Of a DNA stretch of 64,000 nucleotides, positions 26,270 to 41,200 are shown piece after piece. Source of the stretch: Haliotis rubra (lineage: Eukaryota); assembly GCF_003918875.1 (NCBI RefSeq), contig NW_025766959.1, positions 124,001 through 188,000 of the forward strand. The letters are read 5' to 3'. Numbering within the stretch: the stretch's first letter is position 1; each line of letters opens with the position of its first letter. Made by a program: the position numbers.

Positions 26270-29200
26270 AGTGTGTGTCTCTGTGTGTATGTGCCTTCGT
26301 AGGTATGTGAGCAGGTATGTGTGATGCACCATTTTCTGTGTAAGTGTGTGATTGTGTGTGTTCCCTGTGAGTCTGTGTTACCTGAACAACATACAAGTTA
26401 TGGTCATGGAGAGAGTGTGATTTTACGCCGCGTTTAGCCTCTTCCAGGTATATCAATGCCGGAGACACCTGAAATTGTATCCATGAAGGAAATCTAATCC
26501 GAGCCTTTGGCGCAAGTGACCGGTTCGGTCTTCAGGCGAGCTCGCCGCCCGCTGCCAATCAAGGTAAAGACAAAAAGTATTTATTTGGTGTTGAACTGGG
26601 TGGCAATGCCTTACACACAGAATGATGGGTTTATCGTGGTAAATGCGTTTCCTATTTGTCGTCCAGGTCACCTACGTGTTTCAATTTATTTCAACACAAT
26701 GACATTTGACATGCGCACAAGGTATGTGCTGTCAATAAACCAGTAATATCTACCTTATCTCTTACTACACGAATGTGATTTAAGTGGCCGGTTGAGATAC
26801 GGGCTTGTACTCAAAGGAACCACTTGATACGAATCTGAAACTAAGCCAAATAGATTTAGCATCTACGTAAGTTCAAGTTCCGACATGGTACAAGCACTGT
26901 TGTTCTATTGCTAAGCTACAGTAGGTACTCAATGTTACAACCCTGCATGGTGTGCAACTGACTCCTGCAGTAAAGGGCCACTAGCTCCCACCGGAACGAC
27001 ACGATGGTTGATCTACTGAATCGTGATCCTAACAACATCAACGACCATATTAAGGTAATTTCTTGAATCATTACTGGAACTGACACGGAAACATCATACA
27101 CCTGAAACTCGAGAATCATGTCTGTGTAAATCTTTGATACATAAAAATACTTAAGAGCGCTATGTCTTTCATGTTAATGTCATTATGCCTGGATATTTAT
27201 CCAAGTGTCTGAATTGACATTAATGTTTGTAAAGGGTTAATGTTTTCTTGAGACCTAATGGTACCATACTGTTAGAATATATGGATTATATACAAAGGCC
27301 AATTTCACAAGCCATTGAGAAATGTTAAGTTCATACACTTCTTGCGTTAGCTGTCCAATAAGTAATCTCAGCTACAACTGCTTATGCAGTACATTGAAAT
27401 GTAGTTTTCACCTATACTGAAACGTGCATGCTTTAAATATGTGGTAGTACTTGTACTAGTCCGGGTTAATTATGTTGCCCTCAGAGATAACACACTGGAG
27501 TTACATGGATATCCTACTCAGACACATTACACTGACTCCAATCCTTGTATATTGTTAATGCCGATCGGGATGAGAAAAACAATTGACATCTTTACAATGA
27601 TACAGCTTGGCAATCAAACCACCGACCCTCCGTTTTGAGAATCTCAGTACAACGGGGAAAGTTCTTTGGATATACAACTTCTATATTTTAAGTTTTATAT
27701 CCATAGAACTCTCCAAGTTGTTCATCACACCAACCTCTAAATGCCAGTACATGTATTGTTTTCCGTTTTAATCAGGTTTCCTTCGAGGATGTCCTTGCTG
27801 AGCCAGAGGGAGCTCGAAGCATCGACTGTGTGTGGAGCGCATCCTACACATGCTTCAGTTGCTGTAAAGGATGTCTCTACAAAATCATGACACTGTTGTG
27901 TGGCATCTGTATCGCTCTGTACTGGGGCTGTGAGTTTGCGTTGATCGCCTTCACTCACATTTGGTACATCACACCCTGCTTCAAGGTAATGGAGCTCAAC
28001 TGTGGCTGTCTGAAGAAGCTGTACGGCATGTGTGTGCACTGCGTTCTGGATCCCTGGTGCGAGTCCTGTGGGATGCTGTTCATGGCTTTCGGGAAGAAAT
28101 GAAACGGTTTCCATGGTAACTGTGGATATGGCACAGAGAGTTTTGAGCCCAAATTGTTCAAATTTAATTCCACATTAGGTGCCGCCACATTGCTCTGCCC
28201 CCTTCGTACGAGTCATGCGGACTTTTCTTTCCGGAAATAGAACCAGAAACATCTAGCCCGGCCGTGTTGCTGTACATATTGCTGATAAAGCTGATACATA
28301 TTTGATTGGACATAATTGAGAACAATTGTGACAGATCTCAAGGATTTTCGTATTTTGAGATCTTTTCACATTATAGACTAACCGTAGGTGTCATATACAT
28401 ATATTTATACTTTTAAATCTTAGTTATTAATCTTTTACTTACGTACATTTACATTATTTGTAATTTGTTGAATAAAGATTACGTTACAATGCATACAGTC
28501 ATTTAAGTGTTTGTTAAAGCCTTCGGCCATAAAGCTGAAGCCCTGGGCTCGATTACCCGCAATAAACTAAGTACAAAAGAAAGTACATACCTTATGCTGT
28601 GGGACTACTTTCTCAGGAACGACGTGTTTTGGTTGTGTCTTTCAAGTCACAAACATTGTGCACGTGTTCCCCAAACCCCAGTTGTGTACTTTCTTCGGTA
28701 CATGAGTTGATATGTGAAACCAGTTCATGTGTCCCACGCCATATTGCTGAAATATTGAATGTTAATATTTACATGGGAAAAAGTTTTGCAACACCCATGA
28801 TTCATTGATGGTGTGGAATGTACTCACGTGAATGTAAACTTGACCTTGTGACGATCAGGCACGGGTCACATTCCGATGACCATCCTCGGAACACAACGCC
28901 AGTCAGTTATCATGGACCAGAATGCAAGGCCACGTGCCTTTGGTGATCTCTTACGTCAAGGGGAGGTAGTAATTCTACCTTGGCCCACCAGGAGTCCAGA
29001 TTTCAACACCATGGAACATGTTTTACACATTATTGGTTGCATTAAATAAAAAATCTTGATGTGTTAGAACAAGCCTTCCATCAAGAATAGAACGCCATAC
29101 CTTAACTTCAAATCCAATGCCTGATATAGTCAATGAGGAGAGTCAGGACTGTTATTGCAGTTGGCGGAGGCTACATCAGATGTTGACTATGTGTTAGGTT

Positions 29201-38200: not shown

Positions 38201-41200
38201 GGTGCACATAATATTTCCGTGATGTAGTACCCATGAAACCATAGCAACACAGAGACACAGCTGATATCTGTTTTCAAGAGCTGTCATAGCCGAGACGTGT
38301 CTATGAATAGCAATGTTTCGGTGCCATAGCTATTCAAAGTTTAGAAGAAAAATGAGCTGACATATTTATGCTTATAATGTTAGATTCATCATTGATTTAT
38401 TTCTCAAAAATTGACTTGCACCTTGTGCAAGTTAGACTCATAACTAGGTTGCACTTTGTAATACTGGGTTGCACCAATGCAAGTAACAAAGCACTAAATC
38501 GAGCCCTGCAAATGCATGGTCTAAATGATGTCGGGGAAATCTAACAAAGCTGTTTTTATTAGTAGTATTATTATAGCGTATTTTCACAAGTTCTCTTTAT
38601 CCATTACAATCAATATACAAAGCCCCTGAGCAATGTTGGTATTAGAGTGTAACAATCCACTTTGAATTAAACTCGCTATTTCTATATTTCATGTGATATG
38701 TCGCTGGAAGAAGGAGACAGTACTTTGATTAAAATAATTATAGAAATGTTTTGGCCTTTGGATTAATACATGAAATGTTTCATCCAGGTCGAGTTTGAAG
38801 ATATCTTGGCCGAGCCAGAGGGAGCTCGAAGCATCGACTGTGTGTGGAGCGCATCCTACAAATGCTTCAATTGCTGTAAAGGATGTCTCTACAAAGTCCT
38901 GACACTGTTGTGTGGCATCTGTATCGCACTGCAATGGGGCTGTGAGTTTGCCTCGATAGCCTTCAGCCACATCTGGTGCGTCACACCCTGCTTCAAGGTA
39001 ATGGAGCTCAACTGTGGCTGTCTGAAGAAGCTGTACGGAATGTGTGTGCACTGCTGCCTGGATCCCTGGTGCGAGTCCTGTGGGATGTTGTTTATGGCTT
39101 TCGTGAAGAAATGAAACGGTTTCCATGGTAACGATAGATACGGGACAGATAGTGTTGGACCCAAGTTGTCCCAAATCAATCCCAAATAAGATGCGGCTAC
39201 AGTGCTACCTTGTAGAACCAACACACTGGGCTCTTCCGCTTTTCACTTGTCTCGGACTAGCGGTCTAGCCATTGAGCGGGAACTCGTTAAACGGACATTT
39301 GAGATAAGATTTATTCTTCCAATGTTTCCTTTCTTTGAGAATCTTTTAAAATTTTAATCAACTGTTTATATATACTGTTGTATTTATTTATAATGAGGAT
39401 TAGGAGTGTGAAGTTTGTATAAAGTGTCTAATAATACGTGTTTATTGTGTTTAGTAAACAGGAAGATATCATGATATAATTCAGATGAACACGATTCAGC
39501 GTTAGATCGCTGAATTGACGCTGCTGCTATGTGACAAGTACATATCCGGCGTTTGGGAAAACTTACTGCGCGAGCTGAAAGTCAGTGAGTGAGTTTTTAC
39601 ACGGCTTTAACAGTAATAACGCTATTCACGATGGGAAGACACCAGAAATGGGCTCCACACATTGTACCCATGTAGGAAATCGAAAACGCTCAGCCACCGC
39701 GACTTCCCCTTAATCGCCAGCACACGAAGTCAGCCGCCTAACCCGCTCAGCCATCGCGACTTCCACCAGAGACCATATAATAGATTATTATATGGTCTCT
39801 GCTTCCACTCAGGTCAGGCGGCCGACTTTGTGTGCTGGCGATTAGGTGCCTGACTCTGAGGGTGTGGATTCAACCCAAGAAAAGTACTAGAATCTGTACT
39901 TTACTAAGAAAGTGTAATCACAAATATAACATATGTTACATTTGACCACTTTCTAAATGGCATTGTGTAGTCATAGTCCTACTAAATGTCACAAAGCTCA
40001 GGTTTGTGAGGTGAATGAGGAGGTGAAGGATTTCCTCCAGAATGTGAAGACGGCGGTGCGACTACTTTTGATACGATCTAGGTTGTCTGTGCCTTGCAAC
40101 TGTATAAAAACATAACGAGCGCGTGTTGAGACATCTACTGTAGCAACGTAAGCCAATGTGAGCGTATGGATACAACGCCCGTCAAATGATAAGTAAGGTT
40201 AGTCAACCTGAGATTTGTTAAGTATTTGTTCAGTATGTCAGCTATATGACGACAACCTGTCAATAATCCAGTGATCGATATTTTGAGTACCGATCCTAGC
40301 CATAAACCATGGAATCCATTTGGTTATGGCCAGCTTAGGCTGCCGGGGACCTCTTCCAACCCGGATTCCTGCGTGAAGGAGGTTGATAAGGACGACACGT
40401 GCACACAAATCTGTTGTTCGCCTAATGTTTTGTTGTGTGTTGGTTGTCAACAACAGTCTGTATATTGCAACACTGACTGTACTTTTTTTTCTTTTGAGTT
40501 TGGACATGAACCCAAGTTCTTTATAGATAGCCTCGGATATATGCTTAGATCTTTTGGAGTATGCTCAGTGAGAGATCTAATGACTGAAATAAAGGAGTTG
40601 TGTATTTTTTCTTAATTTTCTGTACACTCTATGATACATGTAACATTTTGCAAAATAATAAATACACTTTCAAGTTGGAATTTCTCATAGAATTACCGCC
40701 CCCATTATCTAGCGGATGGAGTGTCTGTCCGGTGGGTCTTAAGTCATTGGATCGTTCAATCTCCGGCCGCACAATACCAAAACACGTTGACAGCGACGCC
40801 AAAGCCCATTTAATTTCACCTTACCTCATCCTGACCTCAGCTAGCCTGTTAGAGTTGCCAAACCGACTAACGGCTGAATTTCATCTGCATTACTGGATGG
40901 TCTGAGTGCGGCATTTAACAAAAACAAAACAAGAAACAATTTTAATATACCCAAACAACAAGCCGTGTTTATGGCAAATTTAATGACTTTTCCACCAAGT
41001 AGAACCGCGCTATCAACCACACAGACAGAGGTGGGGGACAGTGAGGCTAACACTTGGGTAGATGATCATGAAGGGCTTGGCTGCCTGGTCAGTGTTCGTC
41101 TCCCCAGCTTGCCGATCTGTTGGTCTGACTGTACGTATCTGAATGTCTGCCGGCTATGTCTTGCGTGACTATACTGTCTGTCTTTATAGAAGGATACTGA

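What the first reader, a model, noticed from the sequence alone, without database searches (positions are those of the whole stretch)
27004..39114. Extreme cysteine enrichment of these caveolins (12-17 Cys in 108 residues)
Seen: exon 2 encodes 12 Cys in copies 1-3, 15 in copy 5, 17 in copy 6 and 16 in copy 7, including CxxCC, CxC and CxxC clusters inside the scaffolding domain. Known: human CAV1 has three palmitoylated cysteines, all C-terminal to the intramembrane segment. Inference: heavy S-acylation, redox sensing or metal binding.
Basis: partly seen in the sequence, partly recalled or inferred. Interest (0 to 1): 0.65.

Follow-up and report, generated by a model that had tools for sequence, protein, structure and literature searches.

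The report
Cysteine-packed caveolin genes in tandem
A cluster of small caveolin genes from a non-human animal genome encodes membrane-disc proteins in which cysteine is the commonest residue of the main exon, most likely extra lipid-attachment sites, an extreme form of a trend already described for this family.

Summary
The counts are right. Six intact two-exon caveolin genes, one pseudogene and one copy cut by the window edge lie in the window. Their 108-residue last exons hold 12, 12, 12, 15, 17 and 16 Cys. All match Pfam Caveolin and align to human CAV1 (7SC0), with no gap in copies 1 and 6 and one gap in copy 7. The genes are under purifying selection.

All Cys lie in the membrane-embedded helices (CAV1 positions 83-163). 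Nine columns are invariant. None of the 23 Cys columns falls on a position that is polar in CAV1.

The best reading is many S-acylation sites plus some small apolar packing residues. This extends what is known for CAV1 (3 sites) and CAV3 (9 Cys, up to 6 acylated). A 2025 preprint already reports Cys enrichment in the spoke region of 68 of 74 diverse caveolins, so the kind is known and only the degree may be unusual.

Metal binding and redox sensing have no support. Three sequence-only tests of which face the Cys point to were inconclusive.

The parts
27004..27054 (+). copy 5, coding exon 1 (17 aa, MVDLLNRDPNNINDHIK; pin-motif region), donor GTAATT
27776..28102 (+). copy 5, last exon with stop (108 aa, 15 Cys)
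   Evidence: Pfam Caveolin E 5.9e-33
37523..37570 (+). copy 6, coding exon 1 (16 aa), donor GTAACA
38788..39114 (+). copy 6, last exon with stop (108 aa, 17 Cys)
   Evidence: 7SC0 E 2.7e-26, ungapped
5310..5636 (-). copy 1, last exon with stop (108 aa, 12 Cys)
6331..6384 (-). copy 1, coding exon 1 (18 aa, MDIDLTNRDPNNINDHIQ)
13268..13594 (-). copy 2, last exon with stop (108 aa, 12 Cys)
14455..14508 (-). copy 2, coding exon 1 (18 aa)
19474..19800 (-). copy 3, last exon with stop (108 aa, 12 Cys)
20565..20618 (-). copy 3, coding exon 1 (18 aa)
25795..26118 (+). copy 4, caveolin pseudogene fragment: 3-nt and 2-nt deletions relative to copy 5, reading frame broken, no exon 1 found
   Evidence: Pfam Caveolin E 1.6e-9 on the longest frame
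57032..57358 (-). copy 7, last exon with stop (108 aa, 16 Cys), divergent paralogue (47-48% identical to the others)
59166..59222 (-). copy 7, coding exon 1 (19 aa from the first ATG)
724..783 (-). exon 1 of an eighth caveolin copy (MADMIDLVDRDPNGINNHIT, donor GTAAGA); its last exon would lie beyond the left edge of the window

Best explanation
The window carries a tandem array of small Type II caveolin genes. Each has two coding exons and encodes 124-127 aa by exon arithmetic. The exons were never joined.

Each protein is little more than the structured core of human CAV1:
- pin motif (exon 1);
- hook with the signature motif;
- rim helix alpha-1 (the scaffolding domain);
- spoke helices;

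By analogy with the solved CAV1 disc, these proteins would assemble into a one-leaflet-embedded disc.

Their 12-17 Cys all lie in the embedded helices, at positions that are apolar or small in CAV1. The most likely mechanism has two parts. A large subset are S-acylation sites, as in CAV1 (3) and CAV3 (up to 6). A disc of 11 protomers would then expose 132-187 thiols instead of 33, and could carry several-fold more covalently attached acyl chains on its membrane face and rim. In CAV1, simulations indicate that these chains recruit and order cholesterol, and cell experiments indicate that they are needed for sorting of sphingolipids. The remaining Cys would serve as small apolar packing residues between protomers. 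Candidates are the invariant ones at CAV1 83, 94, 141 and 154, which are not in phase with known membrane-facing sites.

Shown here: gene models, counts, family membership, purifying selection, and the position class of the Cys.
Inferred: disc assembly, membrane orientation of individual Cys, and acylation.
For: Family membership.
- Pfam Caveolin is the only family found, for 5 of 5 exon-2 products sent (E 4e-26 to 6e-33). Copy 2's product, identical to copy 3's, was not sent.
- The alignment to 7SC0 is ungapped for copy 6 over 103 residues and for copy 1 over 102. Copy 7 needs one gap.
- Exon 1, translated in place, finds only CAV1 and aligns to residues 46-64, which cover the pin motif 49-60.

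Selection.
- dN/dS is 0.00-0.03 among c1-c3 (dS 0.08-0.14) and 0.27 for c5/c6.
- dN/dS is 0.09-0.21 where dS could be estimated for the distant pairs.

Placement of the Cys.
- There are 0 Cys in exon 1 and in the hook (66-80).
- There are 4-6 Cys in the scaffolding domain 82-101 and 8-11 in the spoke 108-169.
- 0 of 23 Cys columns fall on the 21 polar positions among CAV1 81-169 (5.4 expected, P=7e-4).
- Four columns coincide with positions stated to face the membrane in 7SC0: 99, 133, 143 and 151.

Turnover. There are nine invariant columns. Each lineage also has 3 to 8 further Cys columns that are not invariant, some of them shared between two lineages. This fits selection on Cys content more than on a fixed geometry.

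The enrichment is not organism-wide. A 416-aa LicD-like frame nearby has 5 Cys.

Literature.
- CAV1 sites lie on the membrane-facing surface (PMC9094659, passages).
- CAV3 has 9 Cys, up to 6 palmitoylated, and all resolved ones face the membrane (10.1101/2022.09.15.508083).
- Palmitoylated CAV1-8S recruits about 60% more cholesterol in simulation (PMC12107156, passages).
- Cys are enriched in the spoke region of 68 of 74 caveolins, and a Cys-free CAV1 mutant and C. elegans caveolin fail to rescue sphingolipid sorting (10.1101/2025.10.01.679304).
- The scaffolding domain is buried in the detergent micelle (PMC11088920, passages).
Against: No direct evidence of acylation exists for these proteins.

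The three sequence-only orientation tests were inconclusive.
- Cys versus the local hydrophobic moment: 6/12, 8/15, 10/17 and 11/16 on the hydrophobic side, with permutation p of 0.29, 0.15, 0.21 and 0.008.
- Phase relative to eight known membrane-facing positions: p of 0.11-0.27 per copy, 0.014 for the union of columns and 0.58 for the nine invariant columns. Positions 94, 141 and 154 come out off-phase.
- One-sidedness within helices: only c1-c3 alpha-1 reached p=0.027, and the other tests gave p of 0.09-0.24.

If Thr is counted as polar, the avoidance test weakens to 3 of 23 against 6.7 expected, P=0.039.

Cys columns are not more conserved than other columns: c1/c7 9/19 versus 41/88, and c6/c7 11/22 versus 40/85.

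CAV1 C156 is Cys in 0 of 6 copies, and C133 in only 2 of 6.

In CAV3, three of nine Cys are barely palmitoylated. How an acyltransferase reaches the hydrophobic face is unexplained.

The beta-strand is truncated at CAV1-equivalent 173/174, and disc assembly was not tested.
Confidence: 0.5

Rival explanations
1. Packing and filler residues only. The Cys are free thiols used as small, moderately hydrophobic residues for tight helix-helix packing and for the lipid-facing surface. Few or none beyond the usual two or three are acylated.
For: - Invariant Cys 94, 141 and 154 are out of phase with known membrane-facing sites.
- The small-residue ladder that lets helices cross in CAV1 (A112, G116, A120) is kept next to Cys 117.
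- Variable Cys columns exchange mostly with W, Y, F, V, L, I and M, often by one base change.
- Cys columns turn over like other columns.
Against: - Cys makes up 13-18% of the spoke residues.
- Cys is kept in lineages whose synonymous sites are saturated, and each lineage has Cys columns of its own. This is hard to explain without selection for Cys as such.
- Ala, Gly or Ser would pack as well.
- Four columns coincide with membrane-facing sites of CAV1/CAV3, and three of these (133, 143, 151) are palmitoylated there.
Confidence: 0.27
2. Metal binding or thiol redox buffering or sensing. The CxxC, CC and CxC clusters coordinate Zn, Cu or Cd, or act as a redox switch.
For: The motif types CxxC, CxxCC and CxC are present. 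CAV3 has one glutathiolated Cys that changes G-protein binding.
Against: - Only Caveolin was found in Pfam at E up to 0.01.
- The Cys lie in hydrophobic, aromatic-rich helices homologous to the embedded disc.
- 0 of 23 columns lie at positions that are polar in CAV1, which is where cytosolic ligands would reach.
- The positions are variable between paralogues, unlike fixed metal sites.
- The CAV3 redox Cys is N-terminal, and exon 1 here has no Cys.
- Weak PDB hits to Cys-rich snake neurotoxins (E 0.5-1) reflect composition only.
Confidence: 0.08
3. Covalent staples. Cys of neighbouring protomers form disulfides that lock the disc.
For: In 7SC0, position 133 of one protomer lies close to 143 of the next, and 99 lies next to 121 of the neighbour. 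Copies 5 and 6 have Cys at both 133 and 143.
Against: The protein has no signal peptide-like start. Its homologues sit in the reducing cytosolic leaflet.
Confidence: 0.05
4. Not a real feature. The copies are decaying pseudogenes or an assembly artefact, and the Cys count is compositional noise.
For: One non-caveolin open frame in the window reaches 12 Cys in 108 aa. Copy 4 is a pseudogene.
Against: - Six copies keep intact 108-codon frames, GT/AG splice sites and start codons with a purine at -3 and G at +4.
- dN/dS is well below 1.
- Exons of c1-c3 are 97-98% identical, while their flanks are 69-87% identical.
Confidence: 0.02

Closest known systems
Human/rat caveolin-3 (CAV3)
   Same: A Type II caveolin that its authors call relatively cysteine-rich. 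It has 9 Cys, eight of them in the stretch equivalent to this exon (CAV1 numbers 99, 121, 125, 133, 143, 151, 156, 167). Up to 6 are palmitoylated, and all resolved ones face the membrane. The window's copies share Cys at 151 (6 of 6), 143 (5 of 6), 133 (2 of 6) and 99 (1 of 6).
   Different: The window's copies have 12-17 Cys instead of 8 in the same stretch. They have a cluster of 4-6 Cys in the scaffolding helix where CAV3 has one. None has Cys at 121, 125, 156 or 167. They have almost no N-terminal variable region and a shortened C-terminus.
Human caveolin-1 (PDB 7SC0)
   Same: Best PDB match, E 2.7e-26 for copy 6, with an ungapped alignment (copies 1 and 6) that begins at the first exon residue. 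Kept features: signature motif, G116, A120, H126, W128, P132 and S80 in all six copies, A112 in five of six, and the pin motif in exon 1.
   Different: CAV1 has 3 Cys. Its P110 is Y, C or I here. The window's proteins start at about CAV1 residue 47 and end at 173/174.
C. elegans caveolins (Q94051, Q18879) and S. purpuratus Type I caveolin (PDB 9DN0)
   Same: Invertebrate members of the same family.
   Different: These sit at the opposite extreme. The two worm caveolins have no Cys in the spoke region. The 71 residues of 9DN0 that align show one Cys. So high Cys density is not universal in invertebrate caveolins.
Multiply S-acylated cysteine-rich segments (sprouty-2 CRD with 26 Cys; SARS-CoV-2 spike with 10 cytosolic Cys)
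   Same: Precedents for many acylated Cys in one short membrane-apposed segment (search listing and abstract starts only).
   Different: These are unrelated folds and families, and offer an analogy of mechanism only.

Membership tests
Caveolin (Pfam PF01146) | Match to the family profile above the curated cut-off | tested here: met
   5 of 5 exon-2 products sent score 92-114 bits against a cut-off of 25. The copy 4 fragment scores 38 bits.
Caveolin (Pfam PF01146) | Signature motif (CAV1 68-75) | tested here: met
   F3, E4, D5, L7, A8, E9 and P10 are invariant in 6 of 6 copies and align to CAV1 68-75.
Type II caveolins (Han et al. 2025) | Pin motif (CAV1 49-60), said to occur only in Type II | tested here: met
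   Exon 1 translated in place aligns to CAV1 46-64, and CAV1 is the only PDB hit. The E-value is weak on its own (0.43) because the peptide is short. The peptide is conserved in 7 exon-1 copies. The definition comes from PMC12330381, section 10.
Type II caveolins (Han et al. 2025) | Closer to CAV1/3 than to Type I caveolins | tested here: met
   7SC0 gives E 2.7e-26, against E 2.5e-3 for 9DN0 (S. purpuratus Type I). No tree was built, because no other caveolin sequences could be fetched.
Caveolin disc architecture | Rim helix and spoke helices collinear with CAV1, with the packing residues kept | tested here: met
   The alignment is ungapped for c1 (67-168) and c6 (66-168), with one gap in c7. 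G116, A120, H126, W128 and P132 equivalents are invariant. The A112 equivalent is A in 5 of 6 copies and G in c7.
Caveolin disc architecture | C-terminal beta-strand (CAV1 170-176) forming the central barrel | tested here: inconclusive
   The proteins end at CAV1-equivalent 173 (c1-c6) or 174 (c7). The strand is reported to vary across caveolins.
Caveolin disc architecture | Predicted fold and homo-oligomer | not tested
   Structure prediction was not accepting jobs. The complex-prediction job was never taken in. The joined two-exon model was deliberately not built.
S-palmitoylated caveolins | Cys at the mapped CAV1 sites 133, 143 and 156 | tested here: inconclusive
   133 is Cys in 2 of 6 copies, 143 in 5 of 6, and 156 in 0 of 6. 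The CAV3 site 151 is Cys in 6 of 6.
S-palmitoylated caveolins | Thioester-linked fatty acid on Cys | not testable with these tools
   Needs acyl-PEG exchange, acyl-RAC or mass spectrometry.
Metallothionein-like or other metal-binding Cys-rich domains | Match to a metal-binding family, with Cys in a polar, aromatic-poor context | tested here: not met
   No family other than Caveolin at E up to 0.01. F, L and I are among the commonest residues besides Cys. Cys columns avoid polar positions.

The most novel reading that the evidence does not exclude
These caveolins could form discs that carry their own covalently tethered lipid layer. That would mean roughly a hundred or more acyl chains per 11-mer, on the membrane face and around the rim. 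This is several times the CAV3 maximum of 66, so the protein in effect replaces part of the displaced leaflet with its own chains. A few invariant, off-face Cys (83, 94, 141, 154) would act as inter-protomer staples or a thiol sensor. The array of paralogues with 12 to 17 Cys would then be a graded series tuning lipid sorting.
Probability: 0.12. Interest if true: 0.6.

Novelty: new member of a known kind. Interest (0 to 1): 0.3.

Why it matters
Caveolin palmitoylation has recently been tied to cholesterol ordering and sphingolipid sorting. Cys-free worm caveolin has been used as a natural negative control. Natural caveolins at the opposite extreme, with 12-17 Cys in about 125 residues and a ready-made series of paralogues, would be useful test objects. 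They could show how many acyl chains a disc can carry, how acyltransferases reach its hydrophobic face, and what the scaffolding helix does when its aromatic residues are replaced by Cys. If the density proves ordinary for this animal group, the finding is routine annotation.

Tried and rejected
Structure and complex tools.
I waited at least twenty calls each time, as the tool asked. So there was no model and no fold search.
- Complex prediction (four copies of the copy 6 exon-2 product with A2) was never taken in. The queue was full, and there was no usable answer. There is no verdict of any kind.

Tests that did not settle the matter.
- Three sequence-only orientation tests were inconclusive and are not used as support.
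- A test for extra conservation of Cys columns was negative.

Exon handling. Exon 1 alone (16-19 aa) is below the 20-residue minimum of the search tools. It was therefore searched as an in-place translation of contiguous DNA.

Literature.
- Searches for very Cys-rich or mollusc caveolins found nothing specific.
- Kirkham et al. 2008 is not held.
- The per-protein Cys numbers of the 74 caveolins exist only as Fig. 6A of the 2025 preprint and in closed supplements.

Left unused or closed.
- Left unused: the protein-atlas search (its text says not for known families or taxonomy); genome contigs, phages, plasmids and E. coli collections (no animal sequences).
- As a result, Cys content across other invertebrate caveolins, and the source organism, stayed unchecked.

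Rejected. Reading the weak PDB hits to snake short neurotoxins and to a sodium/proton exchanger (E 0.045-1) as homology. They are compositional.

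
Full report
WHAT IS THERE

A tblastn search of one caveolin-like open frame against the window finds seven copies of the same exon:
- three near-identical copies on the minus strand (c1-c3);
- a damaged copy (c4);
- two intact copies on the plus strand (c5, c6);
- a divergent copy on the minus strand (c7).

The window holds no N. Each intact copy starts right after a pyrimidine-rich tract ending in CAG and runs for exactly 108 codons to a stop.

An upstream exon was found for all six intact copies by comparing their upstream regions. It is a 16-19 residue peptide of the form M(D)IDLxNRDPNNINDHI(Q/K). It has an in-frame stop 7 to 17 codons upstream, a purine at -3 and G at +4 of the ATG, and a GTAA or GTGA donor. 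Introns are 694-1807 nt, and the proteins come to 124-127 aa by arithmetic.

An eighth exon 1 lies at 783..724 (-). Its last exon would be off the left edge of the window. Copy 4 has a 3-nt and a 2-nt deletion relative to copy 5 and no detectable exon 1, so it is a pseudogene.

I do not take this contig for human. The best match to human CAV1 is partial: about 43 of 103 aligned residues are identical by my count of the match line. The locus is also an array of seven or eight tiny two-exon paralogues interspersed with Tc1/mariner remnants.

THE OBSERVATION

Exon 1 has no Cys. Cys therefore makes up 9.5-13.7% of the whole proteins. It is the commonest residue of the exon product in c1, c6 and c7, the three copies tabulated.

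Window base composition predicts 3.2% Cys. The binomial P ranges from 1.8e-4 (12 Cys) to 6e-8 (17 Cys).

One honest caveat applies. Among 39 other stop-free stretches of at least 100 aa, the best 108-aa windows reach 12, 10 and 10 Cys. One of these frames, 11264-11695 (-), has 13 Cys in 144 aa and no Pfam family. The count of 12 alone is therefore not unique in the window. The exons stand out because they are conserved coding sequence.

Of the motif claims, CxxC and CxxCC do lie in the scaffolding domain. The CxC (141/143) lies in the spoke region.

FAMILY

Five of five exon-2 products sent match Pfam Caveolin, and only that family (E 4e-26 to 6e-33). Against all PDB sequences the best hit is human CAV1 in the 8S complex, 7SC0:
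- E 2.7e-26 for c6;
- E 7.7e-24 for c1;
- E 9e-17 for c7.

The c6 alignment is ungapped, and exon residue i corresponds to CAV1 residue i+65. In c7 a one-residue gap makes the offset +66 from residue 39 onward.

Kept features are the signature motif and the equivalents of S80, G116, A120, H126, W128 and P132 in all six copies, and of A112 in five of six (c7 has G). Exon 1 translated in place hits only CAV1 and aligns to residues 46-64, which include the pin motif 49-60. The E-value is weak on its own (0.43) because the peptide is short.

Han et al. 2025 state that the pin motif occurs only in Type II caveolins (PMC12330381, section 10). The Type I sea-urchin caveolin 9DN0 matches only at E 2.5e-3. 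I therefore file these as Type II caveolins.

They are minimal versions. The start Met aligns to CAV1 residue 47, so the N-terminal variable region is missing. The proteins end at CAV1-equivalent 173/174, which leaves only part of the 170-176 beta-strand.

ARE THE GENES LIVE?

Yes, as far as sequence can tell. dN/dS is 0.00-0.03 among c1-c3 at dS 0.08-0.14, and 0.27 for c5/c6 at dS 0.27. It is 0.09-0.21 for the distant pairs where dS could be estimated; most of those pairs are saturated. Exons of c1-c3 differ at 5-9 of 324 bases, while their flanks are only 69-87% identical.

WHERE THE CYSTEINES SIT

In CAV1 numbering the Cys occupy 23 columns between 83 and 163. Nine are invariant in all six copies: 83, 91, 94, 98, 141, 151, 154, 160 and 163.

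By region (boundaries from PMC9094659 and PMC12330381):

| Region (CAV1 numbers) | c1-c3 | c5 | c6 | c7 |
|---|---|---|---|---|
| Hook 66-80 | 0 | 0 | 0 | 0 |
| Classical scaffolding domain 82-101 | 4 | 5 | 5 | 6 |
| Spoke 108-169 | 8 | 9 | 11 | 9 |

- CAV1's own sites are only partly kept: 143 in 5 of 6 copies, 133 in 2 of 6, and 156 in none.
- CAV3's extra palmitoyl site 151 is Cys in all six.
- CAV3's position 99 is Cys in c7.
- The residues that CAV1 has at the 23 columns, read from the alignments, are all apolar, small, Thr or Cys.
- None of the 23 columns falls on the 21 positions with D, E, K, R, N, Q, H or S among CAV1 81-169 (5.4 expected, P=7e-4).
- With Thr added to the polar class the figures are 3 of 23 against 6.7 expected (P=0.039). 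For the nine invariant columns alone the test is not significant.

Since the cytosolic face of the spokes is charged and the opposite face is hydrophobic, the Cys avoid the cytosolic face. The test cannot separate the membrane face from protomer interfaces.

TESTS THAT DID NOT SETTLE ORIENTATION

- Cys versus the local hydrophobic moment: 6/12, 8/15, 10/17 and 11/16 on the hydrophobic side. Only c7 was significant.
- Helical phase relative to eight positions said to face the membrane (99, 121, 125, 133, 143, 151, 156, 167): not significant per copy, p=0.014 for the union of columns, and p=0.58 for the invariant set. Positions 94, 141 and 154 were off-phase.
- One-sidedness within helices: p=0.027 for the four alpha-1 Cys of c1-c3, otherwise p of 0.09-0.24.

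Helix limits are uncertain, so I give these tests no weight either way. Cys columns are not more conserved than other columns. The picture is a fixed core of nine Cys plus a shell that turns over. Beyond the core, c1-c3, c5, c6 and c7 have 3, 6, 8 and 7 further Cys, some at columns shared by two lineages. Copy 6 has two Cys columns that copy 5 lacks; at 129 the change is TAC to TGC.

MECHANISM

What is known from the literature:
- CAV1's three Cys are palmitoylated and lie on the flat membrane-facing surface.
- CAV3 has nine Cys, up to six palmitoylated, arranged in concentric rings. None is visible from the cytosolic side.
- In simulation, full palmitoylation of the CAV1 disc recruits about 60% more cholesterol and orders it.
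- A 2025 preprint reports that a Cys-free CAV1 mutant and the naturally Cys-free C. elegans caveolin fail to rescue sphingolipid sorting.
- The same preprint reports that Cys are enriched in the spoke region of 68 of 74 diverse caveolins and depleted in the first 60-80 residues.
- The scaffolding helix is buried in the detergent micelle in the 8S map.

On that basis the most likely reading is that many of these Cys are S-acylation sites and the rest are small apolar packing residues. An 11-mer, assumed by analogy, would hold 132-187 Cys against 33 for CAV1 and 99 for CAV3. One hundred acyl chains would cover about 13% of a 140-angstrom disc, which is sterically possible. I put this at about 0.5.

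The main rival, packing or filler Cys with little extra acylation, gets about 0.27. Metal or redox roles get 0.08, inter-protomer disulfides 0.05, and artefact 0.02.

COMPARISON AND NOVELTY

These are new members of a known kind. Cys enrichment of caveolins and its link to palmitoylation are already in print, and the closest relative in behaviour is CAV3.

What may be unusual is the degree. The window's copies have 12-17 Cys against 8 in the equivalent CAV3 stretch and 3 in CAV1. The 4-6 Cys in the scaffolding helix lie outside the spoke region on which the preprint's survey mainly focused.

Not all invertebrate caveolins are like this. Worm caveolins have none in the spoke, and the aligned 71 residues of sea-urchin 9DN0 show one.

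Whether 12-17 is normal for the clade this genome belongs to could not be checked. My searches found no paper on such Cys-dense caveolins. I do not claim that none exists.

WHAT STAYED OPEN

- No structure prediction, fold search or complex prediction could be run (51-81).
- The joined two-exon protein was not modelled.
- Acylation, metal content and oligomer state need bench work.

Noticed in passing
window 724-783 (-): Exon 1 of an eighth caveolin gene (20 codons, donor GTAAGA). Its last exon would lie beyond the left edge, so the array extends outside the window.
   Followed up: partly
window 25795-26118 (+): Copy 4 is a caveolin pseudogene (3-nt and 2-nt deletions, no exon 1). It keeps Cys at columns otherwise specific to c5/c6 (107, 110) and to c1-c3 (159). 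This hints that both gains and losses of Cys happened in the array.
   Followed up: partly
window 8569-9093 (+), 22365-22727 (-), 44559-45396 (-): Remnants of Tc1/mariner-type transposases (Pfam DDE_3 and HTH_Tnp_Tc3_2) lie between the caveolin copies.
   Followed up: partly
window 47252-48499 (-): An uninterrupted 416-codon frame with a LicD-family match over its first 27 profile positions only (E 4e-10). It has no PDB relative at E 1e-3 and 5 Cys, so the Cys richness is not genome-wide.
   Followed up: partly
window 34180-34251 (+): A tRNA-Asp (GTC) gene called by both ARAGORN and Rfam (61 bits). It lies inside a 94-aa open frame. Whether it is a working tRNA or the head of a tRNA-derived repeat was not examined.
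   Followed up: no
window 5214-5642 (+), 27737-28174 (-), 38689-39204 (-): Open frames of 142-171 codons run antisense across the last exons of copies 1, 5 and 6. They are probably a by-product of the exons' codon make-up rather than genes.
   Followed up: no
window 11264-11695 (-): A 144-codon open frame with 13 Cys and no Pfam family lies between copies 1 and 2. It is the only non-caveolin frame that reaches 12 Cys in a 108-aa window.
   Followed up: partly
window 5308-7390 vs 13266-16156; 12883-13597 vs 19136-19803: Exons of copies 1-3 are 97-98% identical, while the surrounding duplicated DNA is only 69-87% identical. This points to strong purifying selection or exon-limited gene conversion.
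   Followed up: no
exon residue 45 of each copy (CAV1 position 110): The proline P110 of human CAV1 is Tyr in c1-c3, Cys in c5/c6 and Ile in c7. P132 is invariant.
   Followed up: no
window 43953-44152, 49117-49477, 30083-30296, 26198-26293: Tandem repeats: four perfect copies of a 50-bp unit, a 51/153-bp array, two copies of a 106-bp unit, and a (TG)48 microsatellite just downstream of the pseudogene.
   Followed up: no
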